Part shown: in pieces, positions 42,383-62,632 of the stretch | Layout of the letters: every line of letters begins with the position of its first letter | Position numbering within the stretch: position 1 is the stretch's first letter | Assembly: GCA_043228905.1 (NCBI GenBank) | Contig: JBHGNT010000002.1 | Coordinates: 186,001 to 250,000 of the forward strand | From: Azolla caroliniana | Lineage: Eukaryota; Plantae; Polypodiophyta | Reading direction: 5' to 3' | Length of the DNA: 64,000 bases | Position numbers and translations under genes: made by a program | Notes under the pieces: generated by a model | The model's database searches: none | What the model was told of the DNA's origin: nothing | What the model saw: the letters and a program-made list of their open reading frames with translations, nothing else

Positions 42383-43151
42383 ATGGCAAGCTCGCTTCCC
42401 ACAGAAAAGCTCGACCGGAGAAACTATGCATCCTAGTCATATAAATTGCACCAGTACTTGTTGGAGCATGGATATTGGAGCTATGTGGAAGGAGCCAACA
42501 AGGTAGCACCGGACCCGGCACACAAGGACTTCCCAACATGGGAGCAAGGAGCGAGCAGAGTATTGTACTACCTTGCATCCAGTGTGCACGATCAGATGCT
42601 CAGCTACATCAAAGATGCAAAAACGCCAGAGGCCTAGGAAAATCTCTGGAAGATTTTCGCCGCTAGTACCATGGCACGGAAGTTGCAGCTCTGACAGAAG
42701 TTCCGGACCCTCCACAAGCAGGGGGAGTCAAGTCGGAGCCGGAAACCGGAAGTTGAAAACCAACACGGAATGCTTGTATTGTGGCATGAAAGTCCACAAA
42801 GAGAGTGAGTGCTGGAAGAAGCGTGCCGATTCGGATAAATCCGGATCCGGCAAGGCCGGACAAGGGAACTGGCAAAGCTCGCACTACGCTGAAGGATCAA
42901 AAGGATCCGGAACCGGGAAAACCAGAAAGGGGCCAACCTTTGTGATGAAACACAAGGTCAACTTGATGAAGAAGACCACTTCTGGACCGGAGGAAGTGTG
43001 GTACGTTGATTCCGGAGCATCTAACCATATGACGAGCCATGAAGAGTGGTTCTCGTTTTTAGAGAAACCGGAACAACCGGGGAATGTCGAAACCGGAGAC
43101 GACACCCCTCACCCAATTGTGCATCTCGGAGAAGTCCCTTTAGGCCATGTT
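42383..43151 (+). pseudogene. Copia A gag and protease (stops, internal deletion)
   Basis: MASSLPTEKLDRRNYAS*SYK...; zinc knuckle CLYCGMKVHKESEC; protease motif WYVDSGASNHMT. Confidence 0.9.
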
Positions 43152-43741
43152 TGTTAGGAGACAGTTCCCTCCGGATTGGAAGTGAGAAGAACCGGATGAG
43201 GAGGACCCGGCTACGTAAGACCCGGTGAGAACCGGATGTGGTGTACCCAGCAAGCGCCGGATGATGCAGGCCCGGTGAGGAGTGCTCACCGGATGAAGGG
43301 ACATATTCGTAAATATGTTTCTGAGAGTCCATCGGGGCTATATTTGTAAATAGCCGAAAAGTCATATTAATATAAATATGACTTAGGGCAAACTCAGAGG
43401 CTGTGAAGTTGTCATTCTTGTTGGTGCAAGAAGAGAGAGCGCGTAACAGTGTACAGAGAGAGAGAGAGAGGTCGTTGCCTCTATTGTAACCGCCGCCTAT
43501 GGTGAAGATCGTGAGCACGAGGTCGTTGCCTCCGTGAGCTCACTATTGTAATCATTGTAATATAGTGATAGTTTGGAGTCTATGGACTCCCGTGGTTTTT
43601 CCCTCTCAGGGTTTTCCACGTTAAACATAATGTGTACTCTTCTCTCCTTTGTGTCGTGCGTTTCATTTCCCGTTTTCTCTGTATGATTCTAAACTCGGTT
43701 GTGGCCGAGCGTTGCACATAGAGAGCGTGCAGTTCCTGTCA
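43152..43741 (+). repeat. Copia B 5' LTR (590 bp)
   Basis: TG...CA termini; direct repeat of 54104-54760 apart from a 65-bp unit and a 2-bp GA difference. Confidence 0.96.
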
Positions 43742-43772
43742 AAGTGGTATCAAAGCGAGGCAACACAGAAAA

Positions 43773-44464
43773 ATGGACGATTCATTGGGAGGCATGTTCA
43801 AGCTCACCGGCTCCAACTATTAAGTGTGGAAGTCGAAGATGAGAGACATGCTCGTGGTTAAAGATCTTTGGCTGCCGGTTCAGTTCAGGGTCAAGAGATC
43901 GGACAAAATCGATGCCACGATATGGGAGGTGATGCACATGAAGACAACAGCCTACATACAGTGCTTCATCGACATGAGCCTATACAACAACTTCAATGAA
44001 GAGAGCAAGGCTCATGAGCTCTAGGAGAAGATCGGCATTATGTTTCAGAACAAAAATGTTGTTAACCAGGTTTCGGTATTCCGGAAGCTAGTAAGACTCC
44101 GATACCAAGATGGCTCCAGCATGGCGGAGCACATGAATGCCTTCCAGGGGCTGATACACCAGGCAACATCATTGGAAGTACCTCTCGCCGATGAGGTACT
44201 ACCGCTACTCTTGCTCAATTCCCTCCCGGATAGCTGGGAGACGTTGGTTGTCACTTTGGGCAACGCCGGGCCGGAAGGGAAACGGTTATCCCTGGCAAGA
44301 GTGAAGTCAAGCTTGCTAGATGAGGAGGCGCGTCGGAAAGATAAGGATACGAGCTCCGACTCCAAAGCGCTCCTTACCGAATCAGAACACGGAAGACAAA
44401 GGAATCGTAGTCCCCAGAACCGGGAAAAGTCGGGGACATGGTCAAAGTCAAGGGGGAGGCCTAC
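43773..44464 (+). pseudogene. Copia B gag (5' part, in-frame stops, interrupted by element C)
   Basis: MDDSLGGMFKLTGSNY*VWKSKM...LLLNSLPDSWETLV. After removing C it continues GRP|TCFYCGKQGHFQKNC (zinc knuckle at 50125 onward). Confidence 0.9.
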
Positions 44465-44557
44465 TGTCAGGAACAGTACTAAGACAGAGAAGGAATTAGT
44501 ACTAAAAGAAGTATTAGTACTAAGAGAGGTGAAGAACTCTCGAGAGAAGGAAAGAGT

Positions 44558-44588
<31 letters not shown>

Positions 44589-44878
44589 TGATGATAAGAA
44601 AATATATATATTATGTGAAGAAAATGTACAATAGCTAGGAGGCTTAAGACTGGCGTTGAACCGATTTGGTTCGAAATAATGCCTTGTGCCTCCTTTTATA
44701 GTGTTCTAAGGAATACTCCTGAAGTTTCTAGAATGTTCCAAAGAAATCTGGAATATACATCAATAAAACATAAATGAAAATAATATTTTATGTATGTATT
44801 ACAATGTATAGTCTAATGGTCAAGAGCTCGACCCATGTAGTATAAGGTCATGGGTTCGAGTCTTGCCATATCATGACA
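44465..44878 (-). repeat. Element C 3' LTR (414 bp, contains a (GA)n tract)
   Basis: Direct repeat of 49680-50119; about 6 substitutions outside the microsatellite (manual count). Confidence 0.96.
44809..44870 (+). promoter_or_regulatory. tRNA-like Pol III A-box/B-box module in the LTR of C (second copy at 50050-50111)
   Basis: TAGTCTAATGG at 44809 and GGTTCGAGTC at 44853, at tRNA spacing (T8 to G53 = 45 nt). Confidence 0.6.
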
Positions 44879-47800
44879 CTATTCCCCCTTTAAAACGACG
44901 AGTGTAACGAGTCGTTTTGGATTGAGGACCCGGTTTGTCTAGATATTGACGATGGAAGTCTTCAAGAAGAGCACGAGCATTGGTGACATTCTCTATCGGT
45001 TCCCAAGTACGCTCGCTGGGACTATATCCTAGCCAGTCGATTAGATAGTAGAGCTTGTTGCGAACAAGCTTGGAATCAAGGATGGCGGCAACCTCGTACT
45101 CAAGTCCATCTTCAAGCTCGATCGGGGGTGGAGGCTCTGTAATACGTCCTGGGATGGTGCTTTCTTGATAGGGTTCGAGGAGAGAACTATGAAACACCGG
45201 ACGTATCCGAAGTTGTGGAGGTAGATCAAGACGAACAGTGACATCATTAATCTTTTCGATAATATGGAAAGGACCTAATCGCCGATAATCCAACTTCTCG
45301 CATGGGCGCGTAGTCTTGATGTGTTGTCGGAGTAGCCATACCCGATCTCCAATGTTAAAACTAGATGGGAGTCGATGACGATCCGCATAAACCTTGTGTG
45401 TTTGTTAAGCTTGTTGGAGATGAGTAGATAAATCTGCTTGTATCTTGCGTAACCTCTCCAAACGATCCTCTGCGCAAGGATTTGTGGACACCTCTAGGGT
45501 TTCAAGTACACACCACCGGGGGTGACATCCCGTATAAGCATAAAATGGCGTAACTTTCGTGGATGCATGGATAGAGTTGTTATAGGCAAATTCGGCGAAG
45601 TGGAGAATATCTGCCCAGTCATCCTAATGATAGCTGAGAAAGCACCGCAGATACTGCTCCAGCGTTTGATTGGTTCATTTGGCTTGGCCGTCGGTTTGTG
45701 GGTGGTAGCCGGAGGAGAGGTTACAAGTGACCTTGAGCATGTTAAAAAGGTGCTTCCAGAATTTTGACACGAACTGGGGTCCATGGTCACTGATGATACT
45801 ATCGGGAAGTCCATGATGCCGACATACTTCACGCATGACAATTTCAGCAGTGTCTTCACTGGAGATCTCCTTAGTACATGGCAAGAAATGAGCGATCTTC
45901 GTATATCGATCGACCACCGTTAGAATCGCATTGAACCCCTTAGAGACTCGAAGATCTGTGATGAAGTCTAGAGCAATGGATTGCCACGGCTTGCTTGGAA
46001 TTGGTAATGGTTCTAATAAACCATATGGATGATGCCTTGGCATTTTCGCTCTGCAACATGTATCACAAGTCCGAACAAAATCCTCGACAAATTGTCCCAT
46101 ACAAGGCCACCAGAATGATCGTTGTACTAAGTGTAGTGTTTTAGTACTACCAAAATGCCCAGTTGTATATGTGTCATGACAGTTTTCTACTACTTGAAGG
46201 CGGCAAGAACCATTAGGAACATACAAAAGTTCTTTAAAGAAGAGTAATCCATCATGGTATTTGAATTGCCGATAGTCCGTACCTGGTGGTTGCGACTGTG
46301 AACACAACGCTCGAGAGAGATCAATTTGTGCTAGTATAGCTTGGGCGAACGCATATGTCTTCAAGTCTTCGCGTATGATATCGATAACGCGGGAATCCAT
46401 GGGCATGTCAAAGATCTTTGTTGCTTGTAGTCGTGTCGGTCCCAAGATGACTTGTTTTTGGTTATCGAAAGTTGGCTCGTCGGGACGGGGTGCTAGGTAC
46501 GAACGCCATGATAATGCATCGGCCTTCCCTTGGTGCTTCCCCAAACGATATGTAATTCTGAAGTCGAAATGCGTGAGGAAGTGGGCCCACCGAGCTTGAC
46601 GTCGATTCAACACACGAGCATCTTGAAAGTAGGCAAGGTTCTTGTGGTCACTAAATACGGTGACCAGATGAGAGGATCCCTCCAGAAAATGCCTCCATTG
46701 CATAAAAGAATCCACTATTGCCAATAGCTCCTTATCATGAATTTCGTAGTTGATTTCGGCGGCGTCAAACTTGCGTGAGTGAAAAGCCACAGGATGTAGC
46801 TTCTCATCATTCCCCTGTTGTGACAGAATGCTCCCCAATGCAAAATCCGATGCGTCAGCTTCGATAATAAATGGTTTTTCCGGATCAACATGAGCTAGAA
46901 TTGGAGCCAATGTAAATGCCTTTTTAAGACTCTCGAAAGCCACATCCGTTTCTTCAGACCAAATGAACGGTTGTCCCTTCCTGGTAAGTTGTGTGAGAGG
47001 TAGAACGATCTTTGAGTAATCTTGTATGAACTTCCGGTAAAAATTGGCAAAGCCTAGGAAGCATTGCACATCCCGCACCGAACGTGGAGTCTGCCATTCT
47101 ACCATTGTTTTGACCTTAGCTGGGTCCATGGAGATGCATTCTGACGAAATGATGTAGCCGAGAAATTCCACTTGGTTGCACCCGAAATTACATTTTTCCA
47201 GCTTTGCATACAGACCATGTTCTCGAAGTCGTTTTAGTACTAATAGTACATGAGAATCATGTTCTTCTTGGGTCTTTGAATAAACCAGTAGATCATCCAA
47301 ATAGATGATCAAACAATCATCCAATAGATCTCAGAATATATCATTAGCCATGTGCTGGAAGACTGTCGGTGCATTAGTGAGGCCGAACGGCATGACCGTA
47401 TACTCGAAGTGCCCATATCTGGTGTGAAACGCGGTCTTCCATTCGTCTCCTGGTCAGATCCGTACGAGGTTATATGCTCCTCGTAAGTCGATCTTCGTGA
47501 AGAACCTTGCACCATTGATCCATTCTAAAAGACTTGAGATAAGGGGAAGAGCATACCTATTCCTGATTGTAACCTTATTCAGGCCACGGTAATCTACAAC
47601 AAGACAAAGCGATCCATCCTTTTTCTTGACAAAGAAAATGGGCGCGCCGGGTGGAGATTTCGAATGTCGGATGAAACCATTTTCCAAATTCTCCTCTATA
47701 TAGGCCCGAAGGACTTCCAGCTCGGTTGGTGACAAATTGTAGATCGGTCCCCATGGCGGCTCTTTTCCCGGTTGTAAATCGATGGGGCAATCGTACGGTC

Positions 47801-48467
47801 GATGATGAGGAAGTGTGTTGGCTTGTACTTTATCGAACACATCGGCGTAATGACGATACTTCTCGGGAAGTTGAACGGTGGATCCTTCTTTAGTGGTGCT
47901 GGAGGGGTTTACTGATATTGCAAAGAGGAACATTTCCTCCTTGTGCCCTTCTTTACGCAACTGACGTAGAGAAATGGTTGCCATCTTCTGAGTTGACCCT
48001 TGGGTTTGTCGACACCGGATTTCTCTTGTTCTCCAATGTATGTCTGGTTTATGTAAGTCGAACCACGGAAATCCTAAAACTATGGGATGTTCTAGGATAC
48101 TAATAATATTAAATGATATTACACATGCTAAGTTATCTAGGACAATATTAATGGGCTCTGACACTTCTATGATATTTCCGGAAGCAATGGGACGTCCATC
48201 AATGACTACTACAGAGGCTGGACACTGGAGTTTTCTTAGGGATATATTATGAGCTTGAGCAAATTTCTTATCCATAAAGCAAGAGTTAGCTCTAGAATCT
48301 AGGAGTGCTAGGACATGTACTAGAGGGGTACTTTTAGTACTAACTATTACTTGGGCTACGAACACATCACTAACTTGCTTAGAGGGAATGGAACCACTAA
48401 TGGGCTGCACAGATCTAGGGCTATCCAACCAAACGGCTCCTATTTTGGTTGGACTTAGTCGTTTAAC
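44871..48467 (-). pseudogene. Element C pol: protease, RT, RNase H, integrase, chromodomain (a few stops and a frameshift)
   Basis: LLDSRANSCFMD (protease), FTKIDLRGAYNLVRI and IYLDDLLVYS (RT), EADASDFALG and YEIHDKELLAIV (RNase H), H..H..CDTC and IISDHGPQF (integrase), YEVAAILDSK...YLIDWLGYSPSERTWEP (chromodomain). Confidence 0.95.
48424..48467 (-). promoter_or_regulatory. Putative -1 ribosomal frameshift signal (slippery G TTA AAC plus stem-loop)
   Basis: (-) strand reads GTTAAAC gactaa g TCCAACCAAA ataggagccg TTTGGTTGGA; the -1 frame is open directly into pol. Confidence 0.8.
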
Positions 48468-49606
48468 TCTTCTTCTAACTGACTAAGGACATCAAATCTG
48501 TTTGCAAGATCTAGGCTATTAGTACTATTAGGACTATCAGATATCCCTACTGAAATAGGCTCGGGTTTAGTACAATTAGAACTAGCGACTATTTGGTTTA
48601 CCTGTCTTCTTGGCCTATGGGGGCAGTTTATTGCAATATGTCTTGGTCCACCGCAGTAAAGACATAGTCGATTTGTACGGCGTCGCTGCTTTTCTTCTTC
48701 GGATAATGGCCCTCGACAACGTGTAGTGTCAATCTCCATCGGAGTCGGAGTATTCGCTGGAGGCGCATTATATGACTCCCTCGGAAAAGGTCTTTCTACC
48801 ACTGAGGCGTAGGTGAGCTCTGATCGTGCCCTCGGCATCTGTAGTTGTCGTTCCGAACGTCGCTCAAAGAGGCGGTTGTCACATCTCACCGTGCGACTGA
48901 TTGCTTCTGTTAAGGACTTTGGCTCTTCGGGGAAGGTCAAGAGTAAATCCTTGACGTCGTTGCGTAAACCATAACAGAATTGCTCCATCAACGCTTGATC
49001 ATCCCAAGGGATATCAGCGGCGAGTAGGCGAAAATCTGCAGCATATGCGGAGGCTGGACGGTCACCTTGGTGTAATCGCCGAATTTTGTTGATTGCGGTC
49101 TTGATGCTGTCAGTATCTCCGAAACATGCTTTAAACTCACCTAGAAACTCTTCAAAATTGTTGAGTAACGGGGATTCCTTTTCTAATAGTGGAGCGAACC
49201 ATGCCAACGTTGAGCCACTTAACAAAGTGCCTACTAAACCCACTCGTGATGCATCGGTGGGATACCGAGAAGGATGCATTTGAATAACTAATCGTACCTG
49301 GTTAAGGAACCCTCTAAACTGCGATCGCGTTCCATCGAACTTTGTGGGAAGGCCAATCTTGGGTTCTTTATGAATCCCTTGTGTTCCGGGCCCTTGTTGT
49401 TGCATCGCTACGATGGTTGCTTCGAGTTGTTGCACGCGTAACGCAAGTTCCCCATGTTGTTGTTGCGTTTGCTGCTTTTCTAAGGAGATTTGTTGAAGAT
49501 CCCCCAGCAACCGTTGGTTTTCTTGTTCCAAAGCATGGAACTTCTCTTTCAAGCATTGAAATTCCGAGAAAACAGATTGATATTCTTCAGCGCTAACAAT
49601 GGCCAT
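48455..49606 (-). CDS. Element C Gag (uninterrupted 383-aa ORF; coiled coil, capsid, CCHC knuckle)
   Basis: KFDGTRSQFRGFLNQV (sushi/PEG10-like capsid), PTPMEID and RRRTNRLCLYCGGPRHIAINCP. Confidence 0.9.
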   Translation of the reverse strand: MAIVSAEEYQSVFSEFQCLKEKFHALEQENQRLLGDLQQISLEKQQTQQQHGELALRVQQLEATIVAMQQQGPGTQGIHKEPKIGLPTKFDGTRSQFRGFLNQVRLVIQMHPSRYPTDASRVGLVGTLLSGSTLAWFAPLLEKESPLLNNFEEFLGEFKACFGDTDSIKTAINKIRRLHQGDRPASAYAADFRLLAADIPWDDQALMEQFCYGLRNDVKDLLLTFPEEPKSLTEAISRTVRCDNRLFERRSERQLQMPRARSELTYASVVERPFPRESYNAPPANTPTPMEIDTTRCRGPLSEEEKQRRRTNRLCLYCGGPRHIAINCPHRPRRQVNQIVASSNCTKPEPISVGISDSPNSTNSLDLANRFDVLSQLEEELND

Positions 49607-49665
49607 GGGATGAAAGAAAAGAGGAATAAGAGATTAGTAGGAAATGAGAGAGACAGAAGGTAGGA

Positions 49666-49677
49666 AAATCGGTTCAA
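49666..49677 (-). other. Non-tRNA primer binding site of element C (self-priming type)
   Basis: TTGAACCGATTT lies 2 nt after the 5' LTR and is the exact complement of AAATCGGTTCAA at 49908-49897 in the LTR. Confidence 0.8.
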
Positions 49678-49679
49678 AC

Positions 49680-49795
49680 TGTCAGGAACAGTACTAAGAC
49701 AGAGAAGGAATTAGTACTAAAAGAAGTATTAGTACTAAGAGAGGTGAAGAACTCTCGAGAGAAGGAAAGAGTGAGTGAGAGGGAGGGAGAGGGAG

Positions 49796-49832
<37 letters not shown>

Positions 49833-50119
49833 TGATAAGAAAATATATATATTATGTGAAGAAAATGTACAATAGCTAGGAGGCTTAAGACTGGCGTTGA
49901 ACCGATTTGGTTCGAAATAATGCCTTGTGCCTTCTTTTATAGTGTTCTAAGAAATACTCCTGAAGTTTCTAGAATGTTCCAGAGAAATCTGGAATATACA
50001 TCAATAAAACATAAATGAAAACAATATTCTATATATGTATTACAATGTATAGTCTAATGGTCAAGAGCTCGACCCATGTAGTATAAGGTCATGGGTTCGA
50101 GTCTTGCCATATCATGACA
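49680..50119 (-). repeat. Element C 5' LTR (440 bp; TATA box near 49941)
   Basis: Direct repeat of 44465-44878; the longer GA-rich tract accounts for the 26-bp length difference. Confidence 0.96.
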
Positions 50120-51432
50120 CCTACTTGCTTCTATTGCGGCAAGCAGGGACACTTCCAAAAGAACTGTCGGTATTTCCGAATAGACAAGGAAACCGACGGT
50201 ACCGATTCGAAGCGGACACCGGACCGGACCGGAAGGGAACGGCGCGGCAATCGCGGCAAGTGAAGAAGAGTTGATGCTCATCACCGAGGAGAGTGAGCTA
50301 AACCTTGTCGGCGACGAGATGACCTGGGTGGTCGAATCCGGAGCGTCGTTCCACCTTACCCCGGACCGGTTTAGGGTGTGTCCGGATGGGGAATGAAGGT
50401 ACATGCCGAATTGTCGGCATAGGAGATGTGTGATTGACAACACCAACCGGATGCAAGCTACTGCTGAAGGATGTCTGACACGTTCCGAAGGTTCGACTGA
50501 ACTTGATATCAGCCGGTCAACTAGATGATGAAGGCTACACGGGTAGCATCCAGAATGGTGTTATGAAGTTCAGCAAAGGGAGCCTGATTGTGGCTCGAGC
50601 CCGGAAGGTAAACACGTTGTACTTGATGAATGCCCGGTTATGTCCGAAAGAAGTGAACATGGCATCCGACACTACCGGTGAGCTGTGGCACAAAAGGTTG
50701 TGTCACATGAGCGAGAAGGGGATGAAGAGGCTTGCAGACGAAAACCTCATTCCAGTGAAGAACATGCACTTGGAGAAGTGCACTGATTGTCTGGCCGGTA
50801 AGCAAAACCGGACCTCCTTCCGACCAAGGCCACCGATGAGACGTAATGCACCACTGGAGTTGGTGCATACTGATGTGTGTCAAGTGGACACGAAGTCACA
50901 TGCAGGATCGCAGTACTTCGTGACGTTCATAGATGACCACAGCCGGAAGCTGTGGGCCACACCGTTGAAGACGAAGGATCAGGTGTTATCCGTCTTCAAA
51001 GAGCTCCACGTGAGAGTGGAAAGAGAAAACGGCCGGAAGCTGAAGGCGGTTTGAGCAGACAACGGAGGTGAATATCGGGGGCAGTTCGAGGAGTACTGTC
51101 GCTCGAAGGGAATCCGGCTCGAATTTACCATGCCGAAGACGCCGGAACTAAACGGGCTGGCCGAGAGGATGAACCAGACCATAATGGAGAGGGTCCGGAG
51201 TATGCTGGCGCATGCAAAATTACCCAAGAAGTTTTGGGCTGAGGCACTGTCGACGGCGACATATGTGATAAACAGATCACCCTCACTACCCTTGGACGGA
51301 GACACGCCGCAAAGAGTATGGACTGGTAAGGAAGTGTCCTACCGGCAACTGAAGGTGTTCAGGTGTCTCATGTACGTGCATGTTGCTAAGGACGGGAGAG
51401 GAAAGTTAGATCCAAAGACCCGGCCATGCATA

Positions 51433-52115
51433 TGACGGGAACCCAACGTTCCTTATGCGCAACGCTCGGCCACAACCGAGATTCTTTTCATACACAGAAA
51501 ACAGGAAACGAAACACAGGACACAAAGGAGAGAAAGATATACGCACACTACACATGAGGTTTACGTGGAAAAACCCCAAACTAGGGGAAAAAACCACGGC
51601 AGCCCACAGGCTACAAACTGTCACTATGTATGAATGTACAAAACAGTGAGTTCACGAAGGCAACGACCTCGGACTCACGATCTTCGCCACAGGCGGTGGT
51701 TACAATAGAGGCAACGACCTCGTCTCTCTCTCTCTCTCTCTATACAGTTACGCACTCTCTCTTCTTCTTGCACCAACAAGGAAGAATGACAACAACAGTT
51801 ACTAAAAGTTTGCCCTAAGTCATATTTATACTAATATGACTTTTCGGCTATTTACAAATATAGCCACGATGGGCTCTCATAAACATATTTATGAATATGT
51901 CTCTTCCTCCGGTTCATACCGGGTCTGCACCATCCGGCTCTCCGTAGCCGAGTACTCCTCATCCGGTTCGTACCGGGCCTGCACCATCCGGCTCTCCGTA
52001 GTCGGGTACTCCTCATCCGGTTCGTACCGGGCCTGCACCATCCGGGTCTCCGTAGCCGGGTACTCCTCATATGGTTTCTTCTCCCTTCCCATCCGGAGGG
52101 ACCTGTCTCTCAACA
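51433..52115 (-). mobile_element. Solo LTR D (683 bp), a relative of the Copia B LTR, antisense in the B integrase
   Basis: TSD GCATA at 51428-51432 and 52116-52120. On (-) it starts tgttgagagacaggtccctccggatgggaag and ends gttcccgtca, like the B LTR. Removing it restores RPCI|FLGY. Confidence 0.95.
51905..52068. repeat. Three 54-bp tandem units in U3 of solo LTR D
   Basis: tactcctcatccggttcgtaccgggcctgcaccatccggctctccgtag repeated; 18-aa periodicity in the ORF track. Confidence 0.9.
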
Positions 52116-54103
52116 GCATATTCCTTGGTTACGGCGACGATGAGTTCGGCTACCGAGTGTGGGACCCGGTCGACAAGAAGGTATTCCGGAGTCGAGATAT
52201 TATCTTCATGGAGGACAAGACACTCGCCGACTGGGAGTCGGAGAAGAAGATAATGAACTTTGAGTCAACTGGTAAGGATCGATTCTACGATGATCAGACC
52301 CAACCGGCAAGAGACCGGTTAGCACTCGGGGAACCAGCCGATTACGGTGAGGATATCAAACCGGCTGAAGAAGAAGTAGAGGAAGTTGTAACCGAAACCA
52401 GCCAAGACCCCGAATCGGATTCAGATGAAGAGCAAATGGAGGAGCCGGTTACCGAAGCCCAAAGACGGAGATATCCTCTCAGAGAGAGAAGGGCCCCCCG
52501 GAGATTTCGGGATGCAGAGCATGTGCTGCTGACCGATGAGGAGGAGCCAGAAAGCTTCGAGGAAGCTAAAAGTGACGCCCACAACCGCAAATGGTTAACT
52601 GCCATGCATGATGAGATGGATTCCCTGCATGAGAACCATACGTACGAATTGGTGGAGTTGCCGAAAGGAAAGTGGGCATTCCAAAACAAGTGGGTGTACA
52701 AGTTGAAACTGAGAGATGCCGGCAACCCCCCGAGATACAAAGCCGGGATCGTGGTGAAGGGGTTCCAGCAAAAGAAGGGCGTGGACTTCGACGAGATATT
52801 TGCCCCGGTAATAAAGATGACCTCCATCCGGACGGTGCTGAGTATAGCGGCAAGCATGGACCTCGAGGTAGAGCAGCTGGATGTGAAGACGGCATTCCTT
52901 CACGGTGACCTCGAAGAGGAGATTTACATGCAGCAACCGGAAGGTTTCGTGAAGAAAGGGAAGGAGCACCTGGTTTGCCGGTTGAAGAAGAGCCTCTACG
53001 GGTTGAAGCAGGCCCCCCGACAATGGTACCGCAAGTTCGACTCCTTCATGACCGATCAAGGGTACCACAAGATGCAGGCCGATCACTGCGTGTTTGTGAA
53101 GAAGTTCGAAGGAGGCGACTTCCTGATACTCCTTCTGTACGTGGACGACATGTTGATCATCGAACGGGACCAAGCCAAAATACGGATGCTAAAGAAGGCT
53201 CTCAATCGAACCTTCGCAGTGAAAGACTGGGGATGCATATCATCCGGAACCGGCCAACGAAGTAGTTGTGGCTGTCATAGGAGAAATACGTGACAAAGGT
53301 GCTTCAACGGTTCAACATGTTAGAAGCGAAACCGGTCGGATCGACACTCCCGGAAAACTGCAAATTATCCGGTAAGCAAAGCCCGAAGACGAAAACAGAG
53401 AAGGTTGATATGATGAAGGCTCCATACGCCTCTGCCGTCAGGAGCTTAATGTACGCAATGGTGTGTACCCGACCGGATATAGGATACGCAGTCGGAGTGG
53501 TGAGCCGGTTTATGAGCAATCCCGGCAAGGAGCATTGGAATGCGGTCAAGTGGATACTCCGATACTTGAAGGGCACTTAGAACATGTGTCTCCGATTCGG
53601 CTCCGGTAAACCTCAACTTGACGGTTTTACCGATTCGGACATGTCAGCTGATGTGGATACCAGCCACTCTACATCCAGGTATGTAATGACATATGCAGGG
53701 GGAGCCGTTTCGTGGCAGTCGAGGCTGCAGAAGACGGTTGCGTTGTCAACCACGGAGGTGGAGTACATGGCGGCTGTGGAAGCCGGCAAGGAAATACTAT
53801 GGATGAAGGACTTCATCGGAGAGCTCGGTATCCGGCAAGATGAATACCGGCTCTATTGCGACAGTCAAAGTGTCATCCACCTTGCTAAGAATGCGGCCTA
53901 CCATTCCCGGAGGAAGCATATCCAGCGAAGGTATCACTGGATCCGGGAAAGAGTAGATGACCAGGAGTTCGCGCTGATGAAGATCCACACGGTCGAGAAC
54001 GGGTCAGATATGTTGACCAAAGTACTGGTACCCGACAAGTTGGATACATGTCGGAAGCGGATCGGACTGGTAAGACATCCCATGCCAGAGTGAAGGGGGA
54101 GTT

Positions 54104-54760
54104 TGTTAGGAGACAGGTCCCTCCGGATGGGAAGTGAGAAGAACCGGATGAGGAGGACCCGGCTACGGAAGACCCGGTGAGAACCGGATGTGGTGTACCC
54201 AGCAAGCGCCAGATGACGAGTACCCGGCTACGGAGGACCCGGTGAGAACCGGATGAAGCGTGCCCGGCAAGCGTCGGATGATGCAGGCCCGGTGAGGAGT
54301 GCTCACCAGATGAAGGGACATATTCGTAAATATGTTTCTGAGAGTCCATCGGGGCTATATTTGTAAATAGCCGAAAAGTCATATTAATATAAATATGACT
54401 TAGGGCAAACTCAGAGACTGTGAAGTTGTCATTCTTGTTGGTGCAAGAAGAGAGAGCGCGTAACAGTGTACAGAGAGAAAGAGAAAGAGGCCGTTGCCTC
54501 TGTTGTAACCGCCGCCTGTGGCGAAGATCGTGAGCACGAGGTCGTTGCCTCCGTGAGCTCACTGTTGTAATCATTGTGATATAGTGATAGTTTGGAGTCT
54601 ATGGACTCCCGTGGTTTTTCCCTCTCAGGGTTTTCCACGTTAAACATCATGTGTACTCTTCTCTCCTTTGTGTCGTGCATTTCATTTCCCGTTTTCTGTG
54701 TATGATTCTAAACTCAGTTGTGGCCGAGCGTTGCACATAGAGAGCGTGCAGTTCCTGTCA
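54104..54760 (+). repeat. Copia B 3' LTR (657 bp)
   Basis: Follows the PPT; carries an extra 65-bp unit at 54211-54275 relative to the 5' LTR. Confidence 0.96.
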
Positions 54761-54765
54761 ATGTT

Positions 54766-57700
54766 GGACAAAAGGGAAAGCTGATGAACATATTACATGT
54801 TTCGGCTATCACAAAGAACCTGCTATCGGTCGGACAAATAGTCGATCAGGGGATGCAGGTGCGGTTTACGCACCTCGGGTGCTTCATCAAGGAAGAAGGC
54901 TGGATAATTGTGCAAGGGCGCAAAGAAGGGAGGATGTTCATCCTCAACACAAATGACGTCAGCACCACCACGTTTGCCAAGGACAGAAGATTGAATCGGA
55001 CATCGATCTCTGGCATAAGCGGATCGGCCACGTCAACTACTGGAGGCTTCAGGACCTGCAATCGAAATAGGTTGTGTTCGGTTTGCCGAAATTCAATAGC
55101 CAGAAGGCCCAAATTTGTGAAGCCTGCCAACTCGGGGAGCAACACCAGCTTCTATTCCCCACCGAACGAAACCAAAGCTGTAACAAGCTTGACTTAATCC
55201 ATTTGGATATATGGGTACCGGCACACAAGAGTCGATATTTCGTCTCCTTCATTGATGACTACAACCGGCACACGTGGATCAACCTCATCGAGAAGAAAAG
55301 CGAAGTCTTCGACTATTTCTGGAACCTTCAAAGCTTAGTCGAAAGTGAAACGGGGAGGAAGATCAAGTGCATGCAGTCAGATGGCAGAAAGGAATACTTT
55401 TCCGGCAAATGCAACTGTTATCTGCAACATGATAGAATTCGGAGAGAACTCAGCTATCGATACACACCGGAACAAAATGGTGTGGCCGAGAGAAAGAACT
55501 GGTTGATTGTCGACGCGGCAAGGGCAATGCTGGAGGAAAAGAGCACGCCCAAATTCTACTGGGTTCAAGCGATCCGGACGGTCGTCTACATCCAAAACCG
55601 GATCGGAGACAAGGAGTCTGCACACGAGCTATATTTCGGGCGCAAGACGAATTTGAGGCACCTTCGGATATTCGGTAGCATAGCATATGTGCATGTACCG
55701 GATGAGAAGTGGAGGAAGTTGGATCCGAAGTCGGAGAAGTGCATCTTAGTCGGTTACTCGCATGAGTAGAATCGGCATCAGGGTACTTTCTACCGACTCC
55801 AACTTCCGACTCCGACCCGATTCTTGAAGATTAGGCTAGTGAGCCCGAAGAGGTCCAGGTAGAAAATGAAGATTTTGGTACTCTAGATGAGAGTTTGATC
55901 TCATTTCGGCTAAGTGGGCTGAATGAGCGGCTAAGTCAAGATGACCAGTCTGATGAAGAACCGCGCAAGTAGTGGAGACTCTGTCGTGCATACATGACTA
56001 AGGTGGCGGAAGTGCGTGAGCCGGAGAGCTACACAGAAGCAGCAAAAGACGCAAATTGGCATGCTGCTATGGAGGAAGAAATGTGGGCACTTGATGCCAA
56101 TGACACATGGAACCTGGTTGACCCTCCCCGATAATGTAAACCGATCGGATGTAAGTGGGTATATAAGGTGAAGTACAATGTCGACGGTTCGGTCAATCGG
56201 TACAAGGCCCTATTAGTGGCAAAGGGATATGCGCAAACCCACGGAATCGACTACGACGAGACCTTCGCTCCGGTAGTGAAGATGACGACATTTCATGTGG
56301 TACTAGTTGTTGCTACGGCAAGGGGATGGCATCTTCACCAAATGGACGTGAAGAATGTGTTTCTTCAAGGTGACCTTGAAGAACGGGTCTATATGATCCA
56401 AACCCCTGGATTCCAATCGGAGATGAACAAGTCGGTAGTATGCCGACTCAAGAAGTCGTTTTACGATCTAAAGCAAGCCCCCCGAGCTTGGAATGCGAAG
56501 ATCATGCACTGGTTGCGTAATATGGGGTTTGCGGCCTCAAAGTCCGACTCTTGCTTGTTCATCCGGAACGGTCCGGAACGGTCCAGTGTGCATCCTGCTA
56601 TATGTAGATGATTTAGTCATCACCGGACCGTGTGAAGTTCCAGATGTCGGACGCATTTGAGATGAAGCACCTAGGGGACCTTCATTATTTCCCTGGGATC
56701 GAGGTGATCCGGACCCCCGACGGCATATTGCTCTCACAACGTCATTATGTGTTGAATATGTTGTACAAGTTCAGCATGACGGAATGCAGACTGATCTCTA
56801 CACCCCTAGATGGGAACCTGAAGCTACATCCCAACTCCGGACCGGTCTGCGATGAGAAACAGTTCCGACAAATTGTCGGGAGCCTTATATACCTGGCGAT
56901 CACCCAACCCGACATTAGTTATCCAGTCGGGGTGATCAACCAATTCATGCAGAAGTCGGCCGTTGATCACCTTCAGTGCGCACACCAGATACTCTGATAT
57001 GTTAGTGACGCGAAGGACCAGGGACTGTTATACCGACACGGTATAACTGAAGAGCTAGTCGGATACACCGATTCTAACTGGGCCGGTGATGCATCGGATC
57101 GTCGATCCACCTCCGGTTACATGTTTTCTCTAGGTAGCGCGGTTGTTGCGTGGAGCAGCAAAAAGCAACCGACAGTGGCTTTGTCGAGCATTGAGGTTGA
57201 GTACCGGAGCGCTACCAATGCCACCTGTGAAGCCATTTGGCTTCGACGACTGCTGCATGACCTCCGGATCGAGGTCCTGACCCCGATCCTGATCTATTGT
57301 GACAACATGAGCAGCATTCAGCTCGCCAAGAACCATGTATTCCATGCTCAGACAAAGCACATAGAAGTGCATTATCACTTCATGCGTAAGCGGGTCCTGA
57401 GCGGTGAAGTTGAACTTCGACATGTTCAGACGGATCAGCAAATTGCAGATATCTTCACCAAACCGCTTGGATTGGACAAGTTGCAACACTTCACTGAAAT
57501 GCTCCGTGTTCAGCATCTCGACGTGCCGCACTTGAGGGGGAGAATAGGAACGGGAACGGATGGCACCAAACAAGGAACCAGAGAGGAAGAAAGAACAAAG
57601 GGGGGAGATAAGCAGAAAAAGGAAGCCGAGTCGACCGAAGGAGTCGGCATCCGAACAAGTCGAAGCAACAGCAGCGGTGGTAGAGTCAAGAAGGACAAAA

Positions 57701-58371: not shown

Positions 58372-60887
58372 TTACATTGGTTTCACATTTGGGTACACAC
58401 GCATGTGTATGTTTGGGCTTCAAAGTCGATGTTTAAAGCAATTGTATCACTTCTTGTTTGAATGGCTTTTGGGGTTTAATTTTCTTGCTTTTTGAAACTT
58501 AGTTATTAGCATCACTTTCATTACACTAGCATACATCACAAGTGAATGGACTCAATAAATTGTAGTACCCGTTGGGTGAAAAAGTTGAAGGAAAAAAAGA
58601 AAAAAATATTGTAATCCTAAAGGATGTGAAAGTGCAGTGAAAGGCAAAGAATGGAGTGGAATGCAAGGTAAGGAAAGGCACAAAAAACGGATATAAAAGG
58701 CTCTTATACTTTTATAATAAGTAAGATTAACTATATACTTTTCCATCTTCATCAAGTTGGCCTTTTTCTTTATTGAAATCATGGGTGGAGCACATTACCA
58801 CAAACATTCTATTATGATGCGTATGAACAAGAAGAAGACGATGAAGAACATTAAAACATTGTTAATGAAAAAGTATCATCATCATCACCCCCTTGGGCAT
58901 TATGAGCCTTAGAGACATATTTATGTAAATGGAGTACATTTTCATCATGGTCATCGCCGCTTATCACATTCCCCAAGTTGTAGCAATATTATTGATATGA
59001 ATTATATAATAAATGGCCTTGTGAGTCCATGAACTACGATACTTTAAAGAGACCATGAAAAAAGGTTCCTCGTTGTCGTCATCCTCACCCTCATCATCAT
59101 CATCAACAACCCCACCATTATCGTAATGATCATGTACAAGCATTCTCATATGTGGAAGCGTGAAAGTCGGGATCGCAGTCCATCACTAGTACCTCCCAAT
59201 GCTTCAATCATATCATATGATGATATATTGACAAAGCAATTTCCACAACATGGTATTATAAACATTGGAGCAACTTGCCATCATCATGGACATTGCAACC
59301 AAAAGCTTTCTCAAGTATGCTCATCTATAAGTTAAGTGCGTGATATGGTCTTACCACACCTCACGGGAGGATAACATCAATGTTGAAAATTATAAAAATC
59401 TGTCAACACCACCACCTAACAATAATATTGTTGGATCAACCTCTCCTTGTGGCATCTATCCTCTCAATGATGTCCGAGGTCTTTCTTATACCCCACCTAC
59501 TTCCAACGTTGGCATGGCCCCATTTGGTCGTGCTATGAACCTAATTGATATCATTGGCCCTTCACATGCCCCCTACCTACAACTAATTATGTTGACAATT
59601 TAATCATATTTCTAAATTAGAAAGCTAATGAGATATACATAACGTCTCATAAAAGATAAACTATTGTTGGAAGAAGCCTAATTTGAAAAGTTACTTTAAA
59701 ACCTATATGTTTTGGAAATTTGGATACCAAAGGTTTGTCAGTCTAAAAGGCACTCATGCATTCAAGACAGTTATTACTTTCTTAAGGCTATAAATTTGGA
59801 AAGCTATCTAAATCCTAATTTTCCGGAAATTGCCACATTGTCTAGAATGTCTATGAAGGCAATGTAGCAATATATTTTTCATATTAATAAACTAGTGCTG
59901 GTAAGCCCAAATATCGCAATTGCATTGGCACGAAAGTAGCTGTACGGCAAAGTTTCCACTGAGCCAAATTTGGTGGGAACCACAACCGAAATAAATGTAT
60001 TATTCGTTTAATTTCTGTGAGATGTTCTACCCCTTGCATATGTCTATATCATAGACATTACAGCAAATTTGTCTTTCCTCTAGAGTCCTAGGTCAACAGT
60101 TTATGGTTAAGGTGCAAAATTTAGATCAATGTGTTTAAAAAACAGAATGTCCTGATGGTTTGAATTTCAGCCATTCCTGCTTAATGCTTCCCGAAGACAA
60201 AGAGTGTATATCTTGAGAAGCGAAAACAAGCTCCTGTGTGCAGCTAAAATTAATTAGGAATACTTGCACAATCCAAATGACAAAACACTTCCACGAGTTT
60301 CATAATTTACAAACTTGGACTATGATTGAAACAATGGTTATATTTCACTAACGAGGCAGTATGCGTAATCATATTTTAATGGAGTCAATTAAGAAGCTAA
60401 ATATGTGACCATCAACTCTACTTCTGTACAAGTCATAACCTGGGTGTCAAATGAATTTTCAGTCTTTTGGGAGGAGATTATGAAACGACAAAGGGCAAAG
60501 CAATGACTTTGACCTCTTTGTTTAATTAATAATGAAATAGAGCAAATGTAAACATCGTGGGCAGCTCACACCGAAAAACAGAGAACTCTGAATAAAAGGG
60601 CTCTTGCAGTAACTCATCTAGCTCCCTATGTAGAACACTGATCTCTTAGAGCAGGGAAAAGACATAGATACATATTAAGCTGGTAGCTCCTACATAGTCC
60701 ATGATTTACAGATGCATTTATTTCCAAGATGGAGATTACCCTTAAGTTATTTATCAAGATGGAACATACAAAGTGCTCATTTCCCATTCATTGTAGAGCA
60801 AGTTTTACATGCACCCTAATCATAGCTCTGGCCCTCCATCATACCTATGGAAAGAATCGTGCTGGCCACACCTCGTTTCTACGGGCA

Positions 60888-62558
60888 CTATCTTGAAGTT
60901 GACTCGACAACAGCATAGCATTCCAAACAGAATGCTCTATCATATCGTTCCTGGAAGCTGAAAGGAAGAGTTGTATGACTTAGAATAAAGAGCAGACATG
61001 CATCAATCAAACTTTTGCAACATCTTACTCTAGTATAGAACACACTGAGCAGAAGTCCTCATCACATCTTGCACACTGCCTGCAACACATTGAACATGCC
61101 TTCCTCCTATTTATCAATACAGAAGTAAACTCCATTAGAGCATGTGGCATGCATCCATGATTACTTATGTGTTTATGCATGTGTTCTCTGCTATTACCTT
61201 TAACGATCTTAATCTCATAACATGATTAGAAACAAATCCACGAAGCAAGCTAAGGAGTAACAAATGGACCACCATAAAATGGATGAGAAAGATAATGAAT
61301 TGGCTAATTTTTCAAGTAAAGACGCCTAAGTAGAATTTTAAAAAAAGGAATCAGATTTAAAAACGTCTAAGATATAGAGTGCTAGATGTGAATCATCTTC
61401 ATTCTAATTTAGGATAAATTGCTTACAACATTACATCAAACACTCAAGCAAGTCACTAGAACAACATTGCTTCTATTGAATTGAGCACTCCATGCTAATG
61501 GAACAGACATCAGTTTTACTTAGAACAAAGAGAGGTATCAGGAAACTAAACCCTGCTTCCTCAAACTAATGCCATGTGCTTGAGGTATCAGGAATGCAAC
61601 AATTTCACTTTATTATATTGGTTTGGCACTCTGGAAACTGAAATTCACAGTGGAGTGAAAATGCATTTCCTCAAACAATAGAAACTTAGTAGCACTTCTG
61701 TGAAGATTTTGGTAAAAAATCACGGATCATACTTATCATAAATCTGTTCACTCTATCTCATTGAAACACAAAAGTTATGTCTGATGTTAAGATAACAACC
61801 TTTCACACATACTAAAGAGGCATATATATGTTTGGAAACATACAGGGTACATTTACTCTAGTAAGTTATGTATGACATGAAGAAAACCAAGTTTCGTTGA
61901 ACTTTAGAAAAGAATTTCTACAACCAAGTTTCGTTTCCAACCAATTGCTGGAGGCTAAAGTCACTTCTGTCATATATGAAGGCAATGTTTTCATATTTTT
62001 TCTTAGCACATATGGCATGTTCAAGAATACATGTGCTTAAAATATTCCAAACGTGAAAGACTGCAAATAACGCGTAAAACGTGTCTTAGAAGTATGAGAG
62101 AGATACAGCCATCACCTGCAATGAAAGCACATGAGGTTGGACGGTACCGTTCCAGATGTGGAGGTGTTGGAAGCAGCTAGATCCACTGATACTATCTTTC
62201 CACTAAAGTTTGAGATGAAGAATGTCCGATTGGTGGAAGAAAGAGGCATATCTTGCCTTGCACACGAACAGCATGTGGCTTCCGATTCTAAACACTTTCC
62301 TCCTACTGCTGCTTTGTTCACTGAACGCATATTTCGGATTGTAGACTCTGTTGTAATAAAAATAATAAAAATTCCCAAGGAGAGCATTCGTTTCCAGGGA
62401 CATCATCATTTAAAGAGATCGACTCAGAGTTAAAATAAGAGTTATCAGGGAAACATAACGAGAACCTTACCGTAAAGAGAGAATGCATCGTCTTTCATCA
62501 ATTTGAGATCTTCCGTTCTTTCTGAGAACGCAGCCGCCGTCCTTTTGAAACCCAGCAT
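60888..62558 (-). CDS. SIVA1: SIVA-like zinc-finger protein, 155 aa; exons 62558-62471, 62347-62116, 61106-61029 and 60957-60888
   Basis: Three GT-AG introns in matching phases (1, 2, 2) give 468 nt without internal stops. The C-terminus CFHC-RRKA-CSMC-CRQ-CARC-DEDF-CSVC-SILDFQERYDRAF-CLEC has the cysteine spacing of the animal SIVA1 C-terminus as I recall it. The symbol is assigned by motif recognition, not by a database search. Confidence 0.8.
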
Positions 62559-62632
62559 ATTCACCTGAGAGAGCAGCCAAGTTGCAGACTGTATGAGTTC
62601 CCGCCAAATAATAATGCTCGATTTCGCAGAAA

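What the first reader, a model, noticed from the sequence alone, without database searches (positions are those of the whole stretch)
49666..49941. Self-priming (tRNA-independent) reverse transcription signature in element C
Seen on (-): no TGG-type PBS follows the 5' LTR. Instead TTGAACCGATTT (49677-49666) is the perfect 12-nt complement of AAATCGGTTCAA (49908-49897), which begins 33 nt downstream of the TATAAAA at 49941, where the transcript 5' end is expected. Known: S. pombe Tf1 primes with the first 11 nt of its own mRNA, and this is proposed for Tcn1-type chromoviruses. Extra detail: the bases just upstream (tcgaacc) can pair with the primer itself (gaacc-aaatc-ggttc), so transcripts starting slightly upstream would hide the primer. 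That could be a start-site-dependent switch between translation and replication (inference).
Basis: partly seen in the sequence, partly recalled or inferred. Interest (0 to 1): 0.75.

Follow-up and report, generated by a model that had tools for sequence, protein, structure and literature searches.

The report
Self-priming plant chromovirus retrotransposon
A broken plant jumping gene carries, where such elements normally dock a host tRNA, 12 letters that match the predicted start of its own RNA, and its relatives keep this match with different letters, so the family likely starts copying itself from its own RNA, a trick known from yeast and already predicted for this plant group.

Summary
Element C (44465-50119, minus strand) is a Ty3/gypsy chromovirus of Tcn1 type, with 440/414-bp LTRs, a GTAGG target duplication and a pol broken by stops. 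It has no TGG site. TTGAACCGATTT starts 2 nt after the 5' LTR and is the exact complement of 49908-49897 (2 of 20,000 shuffles do as well). In 25 of 35 scorable relatives the 12-mer pairs perfectly; letters change on both sides at least 15 times among the close relatives; pairing stops sharply at +1 and +12; +1 lies 32-33 nt after a TATA box on a YR dinucleotide. Tf1-type self-priming is therefore very likely, though no start site or cDNA was mapped. It is not new: Neumann et al. 2019 predicted it for 83% of 1500 Tcn1 elements, and this scan noted it before on other DNA (e1-7364707). The proposed upstream hairpin switch is not supported: no covariation, absent in 8 of 19 contexts, and predicted to lose to the primer duplex in this copy. 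Leftovers: two contigs with a primer-to-antisense-U5 junction, and a possible fern host.

The parts
49680..50119 (-). 5' LTR, 440 bp, TG...CA
   Evidence: TGTCA at 50119, TGACA ending at 49680; 6 substitutions in 414 aligned columns and one 26-bp CT-repeat indel against the 3' LTR
49935..49941 (-). TATA box TATAAAA (predicted)
   Evidence: 32-33 nt before the primer in 34 of 36 sequences
49909..49915 (-). upstream segment tcgaacc, able to pair with the primer (hairpin; function not supported)
49897..49908 (-). predicted self-primer AAATCGGTTCAA, the predicted first 12 nt of the genomic RNA (C|A at -1/+1)
49887..49896 (-). conserved CRCYAGTCTT block after the primer; its GTC can pair with GAC of the LTR end (second helix, inconclusive)
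49666..49677 (-). primer-binding site TTGAACCGATTT, 2 nt after the LTR
48455..49606 (-). gag, open, 383 aa (Retrotrans_gag, Ty3_capsid, DUF4939)
44871..48482 (-). pol (protease region, RT, RNase H, integrase, SH3, chromodomain), overlapping the end of gag in the -1 frame; five premature stops at 47456, 47333, 45677, 45626, 45407
44879..44890 (-). polypurine tract before the 3' LTR
   Evidence: AAAGGGGGAATAG|TGTCA
44465..44878 (-). 3' LTR, 414 bp, with the second copy of the 12-mer at 44667-44656 and the same upstream segment
50120..50124 (-). target-site duplication GTAGG, left copy
44460..44464 (-). target-site duplication GTAGG, right copy

Best explanation
Element C is a Tcn1-type chromovirus whose PBS position holds the exact complement of a 12-mer in its own LTR, and its family likely primes reverse transcription with the first 12 nt of its own RNA, as Tf1 does. 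Steps: (1) inferred: Pol II starts at 49908, 33 nt after the TATA box. (2) Predicted by folding and supported by covariation: nt 1-12 pair with the PBS across a loop of about 219 nt, mostly pyrimidines. (3) Inferred from Tf1: the element's RNase H cuts between nt 12 and 13 and frees a 3'-OH. (4) Inferred: RT extends from there into U5 to make minus-strand strong-stop DNA. (5) Inferred: the retained primer is later copied back into the PBS, which would help keep the two sites matched. This copy cannot do so by itself, because its pol carries five stops (shown).
For: Exact 12-nt complement, 2 of 20,000 shuffles. Primer sites were located by TATA plus a downstream motif, not by pairing: 25 of 35 relatives pair 12/12, and 32 of 36 sequences pair at 11 or more positions counting G-U. 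Across 15 distinct primer/PBS combinations, mean pairs are 11.2 against 8.7 permuted (none of 20,000 permutations as high). On alignment A2, 6 of 12 pairs change on both sides, 35 such cells against 10.4 in shuffles (0 of 500). Parsimony needs at least 15 two-sided changes without the outgroup and 19 with it. Pairing is 26-30 of 30 contexts at +1..+12, but 1-2 of 30 at -2/-1 and 0-1 of 30 at +13..+19. YR at -1/+1 in 33 of 36, matching plant promoters (PMC1832190). No TGG in any of 54 sequences, while the copia element in the same window has a normal TGGTATCA site. Within the family, the only listed variants in primer and PBS are the partner positions 49904 and 49670. Class I chromodomain with the aromatic cage intact. 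The named pol relatives are fungal, vertebrate and algal.
Against: No start site, cleavage or cDNA end was observed; Logan contigs cannot show these. Positions 9-12 were fixed by my search filters and carry no information, and the TATA spacing was searched only within 30-40 nt. Ten of 36 sequences are imperfect. Of 18 further loci without the anchor, L012, L019, L069 and L073 have candidate sites that pair poorly. The 'pairs with a two-sided change' measure alone was not above shuffle (6 vs 4.6, 90 of 500). The relatives are mostly collapsed assembly contigs from one series of assemblies, so they are not independent hosts. The two side helices of the Tf1 pretzel are not clearly present.
Confidence: 0.9

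Rival explanations
1. A host tRNA end, half-tRNA or tRNA fragment primes at this site, and the match to the LTR is incidental.
For: The primer holds GGTTCAA, which resembles a tRNA T-loop (resemblance recalled, from no call). Neumann et al. list tRNA-Met for 5% of Tcn1 elements.
Against: No TGG in 54 of 54 sequences. The PBS takes 19 different sequences among those 54, and the LTR copy follows the changes. Rfam found nothing at E<=1 in 49550-50150. Host tRNAs could not be compared, because no genome is held.
Confidence: 0.03
2. The match is kept at the DNA level by template switching or conversion between two inverted 12-mers, with priming by some other route.
For: Two contigs show an inverted junction at exactly these repeats, so the repeats can join strands. 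Covariation alone does not show an RNA helix.
Against: The match ends exactly at the predicted +1 and 2 nt from the LTR end in about 30 contexts. A DNA-level process would not respect a start site. No other priming site exists.
Confidence: 0.04
3. Add-on to self-priming: the U3 end folds onto the primer and hides it, either in transcripts that start upstream or, more simply, in the 3' LTR copy, where U3 always precedes the 12-mer.
For: The hairpin is -6.1 to -7.7 kcal/mol in 8 of 19 contexts. In 6 of 32 sequences, those with a perfect TTGAACC, a 10-nt extension drops the predicted primer:PBS pairing from above 0.9 to below 0.4. A TTGAACC-type variant at 49914 is common in the family. Local z = -2.2.
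Against: No covariation: 82.6% paired vs 83.1% shuffled, score 232 of 500. Cognate and swapped partners do not differ (p = 0.14). The hairpin is absent in 8 of 19 contexts, including most of the clade whose primer core changed. In the window's copy the 12-bp duplex (-14.5) wins at every extension. TCG/TTG at 49914 is an ordinary CpG transition. AACY|A may simply be initiator context.
Confidence: 0.1

Closest known systems
Tf1/Tf2 of Schizosaccharomyces pombe (PMC7175516 passages; bioRxiv 10.1101/2022.12.06.519325 passages)
   Same: Ty3/gypsy chromovirus with no tRNA site; the PBS next to the 5' LTR is complementary to the 5' end of the element's RNA.
   Different: 12 nt rather than 11; a 2-nt spacer after the LTR; gag and pol overlap in different frames; plant host; the two side duplexes of the Tf1 'pretzel' are only partly evident; cleavage is shown for Tf1 and only inferred here.
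Plant Tcn1 clade, REXdb (Neumann et al. 2019, PMC6317226, passages and Additional file 5)
   Same: Self-priming predicted in 83% of 1500 elements by the criterion this copy meets (a complement of 10 bp or more starting 0-5 bp after the LTR). 5-bp TSD, size inside 5466-9444 bp, overlapping gag/pol, chromodomain with aromatic cage.
   Different: Reported only from moss and club-moss; the host here is an unplaced land plant. In the passages I read, the prediction rests on complementarity alone. The two-sided covariation shown here is extra support, and my one search for it in print found no paper.
SM-Tcn1 of Selaginella moellendorffii (Novikova et al. 2010, PMC2864245, passages and section 7)
   Same: 5.7 kb, 440-bp LTRs, two ORFs, chromodomain, pyrimidine-rich leader.
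   Different: The authors found evidence for neither tRNA priming nor self-priming in it, and their PCR found no Tcn1-like clones in 26 ferns and horsetails.
Tf2 alternative start-site control (Persson et al. 2016, PMC5341516, passages and section 5)
   Same: Start-site choice decides whether the RNA carries a usable self-primer.
   Different: In Tf2 the non-priming RNA starts downstream and lacks the primer. The idea here needs an upstream start and a masking hairpin, which my tests did not support.

Membership tests
Ty3/gypsy chromovirus | Domain order Gag-PR-RT-RH-INT with C-terminal chromodomain; TG..CA LTRs, TSD, PPT | tested here: met
   the protease had no Pfam hit at E 0.001 and is recognised only by its LLDS motif and position
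Tcn1 clade | Class I chromodomain with aromatic cage | tested here: met
   Y, W and Y of the cage align with HP1/CBX5
Tcn1 clade | 5-bp TSD, 5.5-9.4 kb, gag/pol overlapping in different frames | tested here: met
   GTAGG; 5655 bp; overlap 48482-48455
Tcn1 clade | RT/RH/INT cluster with reference Tcn1 elements in a tree | tested here: inconclusive
   No reference Tcn1 sequence was available. The 5 named proteins among the best 120 pol hits are from two fungi, two vertebrates and one alga, none from a seed plant. This fits the Tf1/sushi branch but is not a tree.
Tcn1 clade | Host is a moss or club-moss | tested here: inconclusive
   Neighbouring copia RT has angiosperm named hits at about 40-68% identity and closer unnamed ones: a land plant, group unresolved
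Tf1/sushi self-priming group | No tRNA PBS; PBS complementary to an LTR segment | tested here: met
Tf1/sushi self-priming group | The complementary segment is the RNA 5' end | not testable with these tools
   Only indirect: TATA at 32-33 nt, YR, pairing stops at +1. No raw RNA reads were listed.
Tf1/sushi self-priming group | Three-duplex 'pretzel' 5' UTR | tested here: inconclusive
   Central duplex met. GTC:GAC is 94% paired but shows no two-sided change in A2, and its predicted probability runs from 0 to 0.99 (0.02 in this copy). The leader-to-loop duplex was within the best 5% of shuffles in only 5 of 32 sequences.
Tf1/sushi self-priming group | RNase H cleavage releases the primer | not testable with these tools
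   Needs biochemistry

The most novel reading that the evidence does not exclude
The U3 end works as a built-in mask. It folds over the primer sequence wherever U3 precedes it (always in the 3' LTR copy, and in any upstream-started RNA), so only the exact 5' end can prime. The rare primer-to-antisense-U5 junctions are fossils of the cases where a U3-extended copy primed anyway. If the host is a fern, this sits in a large self-priming Tcn1 radiation in a lineage where the clade was thought absent.
Probability: 0.1. Interest if true: 0.6.

Novelty: new member of a known kind. Interest (0 to 1): 0.3.

Why it matters
Self-priming has been shown by experiment mainly in fission yeast, and for plant Tcn1 elements it was a prediction from complementarity. 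This family supplies natural compensatory mutants (at least 15 two-sided changes in 12 bp) and a base-exact prediction of start site and cut site, so it is a good test case in plants. It does not change what is known about priming mechanisms. A fern host would extend the known range of the clade.

Tried and rejected
No whole genome is held for this window, so other copies and host tRNAs could not be read directly. No RNA holder was listed on record; this says nothing on expression. One search was meant to list every variant in primer and PBS, to separate compensation from CpG decay. It listed no variant within about 35 nt of either end of the stretch, not even 49670 and 49904, so that test failed; one search showed only 40 of 110 variant rows. 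The inverted junction was not found in the 78 loci or the window. Host placement failed: cluster members gave no useful names, the copia RT search was uninformative, the Atlas gave no answer, and the host gene near 60800-62560 has only short exons. The primary Tf1 papers (PMC230564, PMC231564, PMC109269, PMC1369541, PMC6388632) are not held, so Tf1 details come from reviews and later papers. Additional file 1 of PMC6317226, which lists self-primers element by element, was too large to read; it may already hold this PBS type. The B-box-like look of GGTTCAACGCC was considered and dropped because the L013 clade and the outgroup lack it. The hairpin switch was rejected as a family-wide feature.

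Full report
Setting. The window holds a 178-bp satellite from 1 to about 41,040, then nested LTR retrotransposons. Element C lies on the minus strand from 50119 to 44465 (5655 bp), inserted antisense into the gag of a plus-strand Ty1/copia element that has a normal TGGTATCA site at 43745. Its LTRs are 440 and 414 bp, start TGTCA and end TGACA, differ by 6 substitutions in 414 columns plus one CT-repeat indel, and are flanked by GTAGG. Gag is open (383 aa). Pol carries RT, RNase H, integrase, SH3 and chromodomain hits but has five premature stops. The chromodomain keeps the three aromatic cage residues. The five named proteins among the 120 best pol hits come from fungi, vertebrates and an alga. 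This is the profile of the Tf1/sushi branch and its plant clade Tcn1; I could not place it in a tree with reference elements.

Observation. It is exact. TTGAACCGATTT (49677-49666) starts 2 nt after the LTR and complements AAATCGGTTCAA (49908-49897), 33 nt after TATAAAA. Two of 20,000 LTR shuffles reach 12 nt. Folding the predicted 5' UTR gives this helix a probability of 0.91.

Comparative test. A Gag alignment fetched 78 loci from metagenome contigs. I gave 64 of them to the scripts and left out 14 whose match began at the contig edge or deep in gag. Fifty-three of the 64 had the LTR-end motif. In 35 of those 53 the primer site could be placed by a TATA box plus the conserved downstream block, without using complementarity. 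Of these 35, 25 pair 12 of 12; with the window, 32 of 36 pair at 11 or more positions counting G-U. The letters differ between families, for example ATTCCGGTTCAA, AATTCGAATCAA, AGTTCGAGTCAA, AATTCGGATCAA and AAATTGGTTCAA, each with its own complement at the PBS. The 15 distinct combinations average 11.2 pairs against 8.7 when partners are permuted. On a 23-row alignment (window plus 22 of 31 contiguous loci; six near-duplicates, one long insertion and two outgroups left out), 6 of 12 pairs change on both sides, in 35 cells against 10.4 for shuffles (0 of 500). The count of such pairs alone was not above shuffle (90 of 500). Parsimony on a gag tree needs at least 15 two-sided changes among the close relatives and 19 with the outgroup. 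Contig L029 is a natural control: a second family's LTR on it pairs only 10 of 12 with its PBS, while its own LTR pairs 12 of 12. Limits: my filters fixed positions 9-12; most contigs are collapsed repeats from one series of assemblies. Of the 18 loci without the anchor, L011 pairs 12 of 12, L012, L019, L069 and L073 pair poorly, and 13 show no recognisable R region.

Edges. Over 30 distinct contexts, pairing holds at +1 to +12 (26-30 of 30) and fails at -1 and -2 (2 and 1 of 30) and at +13 to +19 (0-1 of 30). The first primer base lies 32-33 nt after the TATA box in 34 of 36 sequences (searched within 30-40 nt) and on a YR dinucleotide in 33 of 36. Plant promoters have CTATAA peaking near -35 and YR at 77% of starts (PMC1832190, passages); here CTATAA starts at -34. 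The helix therefore begins where the RNA is predicted to begin and ends where a Tf1-type cut would fall.

Within the family. Contigs of four DNA runs show one listed variant in the PBS (49670, 33-74% of summed depth) and one in the primer (49904, 14-48%). These two positions are partners (C-G to U-A). The data are unlinked, both sites are CpG, and only 40 of 110 rows were shown; the follow-up failed at the stretch ends. I count this as weak support.

Mechanism. By analogy with Tf1, where the first 11 bases pair with the PBS and RNase H cuts between 11 and 12 (PMC7175516, passages), nt 1-12 would pair, be cut off and prime minus-strand DNA. About half of Tf1 cDNA keeps a copied PBS tail (PMC11042837, passages), so copying of the primer may itself help keep the sites matched; that too implies use as a primer. 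Tf1 needs three duplexes (bioRxiv 10.1101/2022.12.06.519325, passages). Here a 3-bp GTC:GAC helix is 94% paired but shows no two-sided change in the alignment. In the outgroup L067/L071 it reads GTT:AAC. The leader duplex is not above shuffles in most sequences. The pretzel is therefore unproven.

The hairpin. It can form alone (-6.1 kcal/mol), against -14.5 for the primer duplex. In this copy the duplex keeps 0.91-0.93 probability for 5' extensions of 0-60 nt. Across 19 contexts the hairpin is strong in 8, weak in 3 and absent in 8, and cognate partners are no better than swapped ones (p = 0.14). Covariation is at shuffle level. In its favour, 6 of 32 sequences with a perfect TTGAACC do flip to the hairpin when extended. 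If it has a role, masking the 3' LTR copy of the primer, which always has U3 before it, is simpler than a start-site switch (my inference). Start-site control is known for Tf2, by a downstream start (PMC5341516, section 5).

An unexplained junction. One contig in run X11 (DNA, depth 39) and one in X19 (guessed RNA, depth 3.5), from two studies, join 49678 to 49897 on opposite strands. In X19 sense U3 plus primer runs into antisense U5, the geometry of a primed product, but the primer side extends at least 22 nt upstream of +1. Priming by a U3-extended RNA, snap-back of plus-strand strong-stop DNA, or library fold-back would all give this. I cannot tell them apart.

Novelty. Neumann et al. predicted self-priming for 83% of 1500 Tcn1 elements by the same criterion (PMC6317226, passages and Additional file 5). 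Novikova et al. found none in SM-Tcn1 and no Tcn1 in 26 ferns and horsetails (PMC2864245). A search for self-priming with LTR retrotransposon, compensatory and moss found no paper. Searches for Tcn1 with fern gave 4 and 3 papers; in those I opened I saw no report of fern Tcn1, and two of the papers I saw only as listings. The host is a land plant I could not place; other notes of this scan on the same genome suggest a fern (unchecked). The scan has noted the same mechanism in another, moss-like genome. Verdict: a real and unusually well-supported case of a known mechanism.

Noticed in passing
window 49678/49897; runs X11 and X19: Inverted junction joining U3 plus primer (sense) to antisense U5, one contig in each of two studies; may be a primed or snap-back product or a library artefact.
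   Followed up: partly
window 48467-48423 (-); L001-L036: At the gag/pol overlap a conserved (T/C)AAAC heptamer end (GTTAAAC here) is followed after about 6 nt by an 11-bp stem conserved in the relatives shown; a likely -1 frameshift signal. GUUAAAC as a slippery site is recalled from arteriviruses, from no call. The fold is not strongly above shuffles (z -1.5).
   Followed up: partly
window 1-41040: Array of about 230 copies of a 178-bp satellite next to nested LTR elements, possibly a centromere edge; element C has an HP1-like chromodomain.
   Followed up: no
window 49903-49893 (-): GGTTCAACGCC fits the Pol III B-box/T-loop pattern (pattern recalled); the L013 clade and the outgroup lack it.
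   Followed up: partly
window 49740-49685 (-): U5 holds three AGTACT palindromes that can form a 10-bp stem; their number varies in close relatives and they are absent in distant ones.
   Followed up: no
window 60840-62560 (-): Short exons of a probable host gene ending in a cysteine-rich CxxC array, reminiscent of Siva-type proteins (recalled, not searched).
   Followed up: partly
window 43149-43758, 51433-52115, 54101-54777: Three related copia LTR-like segments (94% and about 77% alike, one inverted), suggesting tandem and nested copia copies.
   Followed up: no
L067 and L071: Distant relatives (Gag about 50%) with a 10-11-nt self-complement, a TAACA LTR end and a longer TATA spacing (38); the same design in another host group.
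   Followed up: partly
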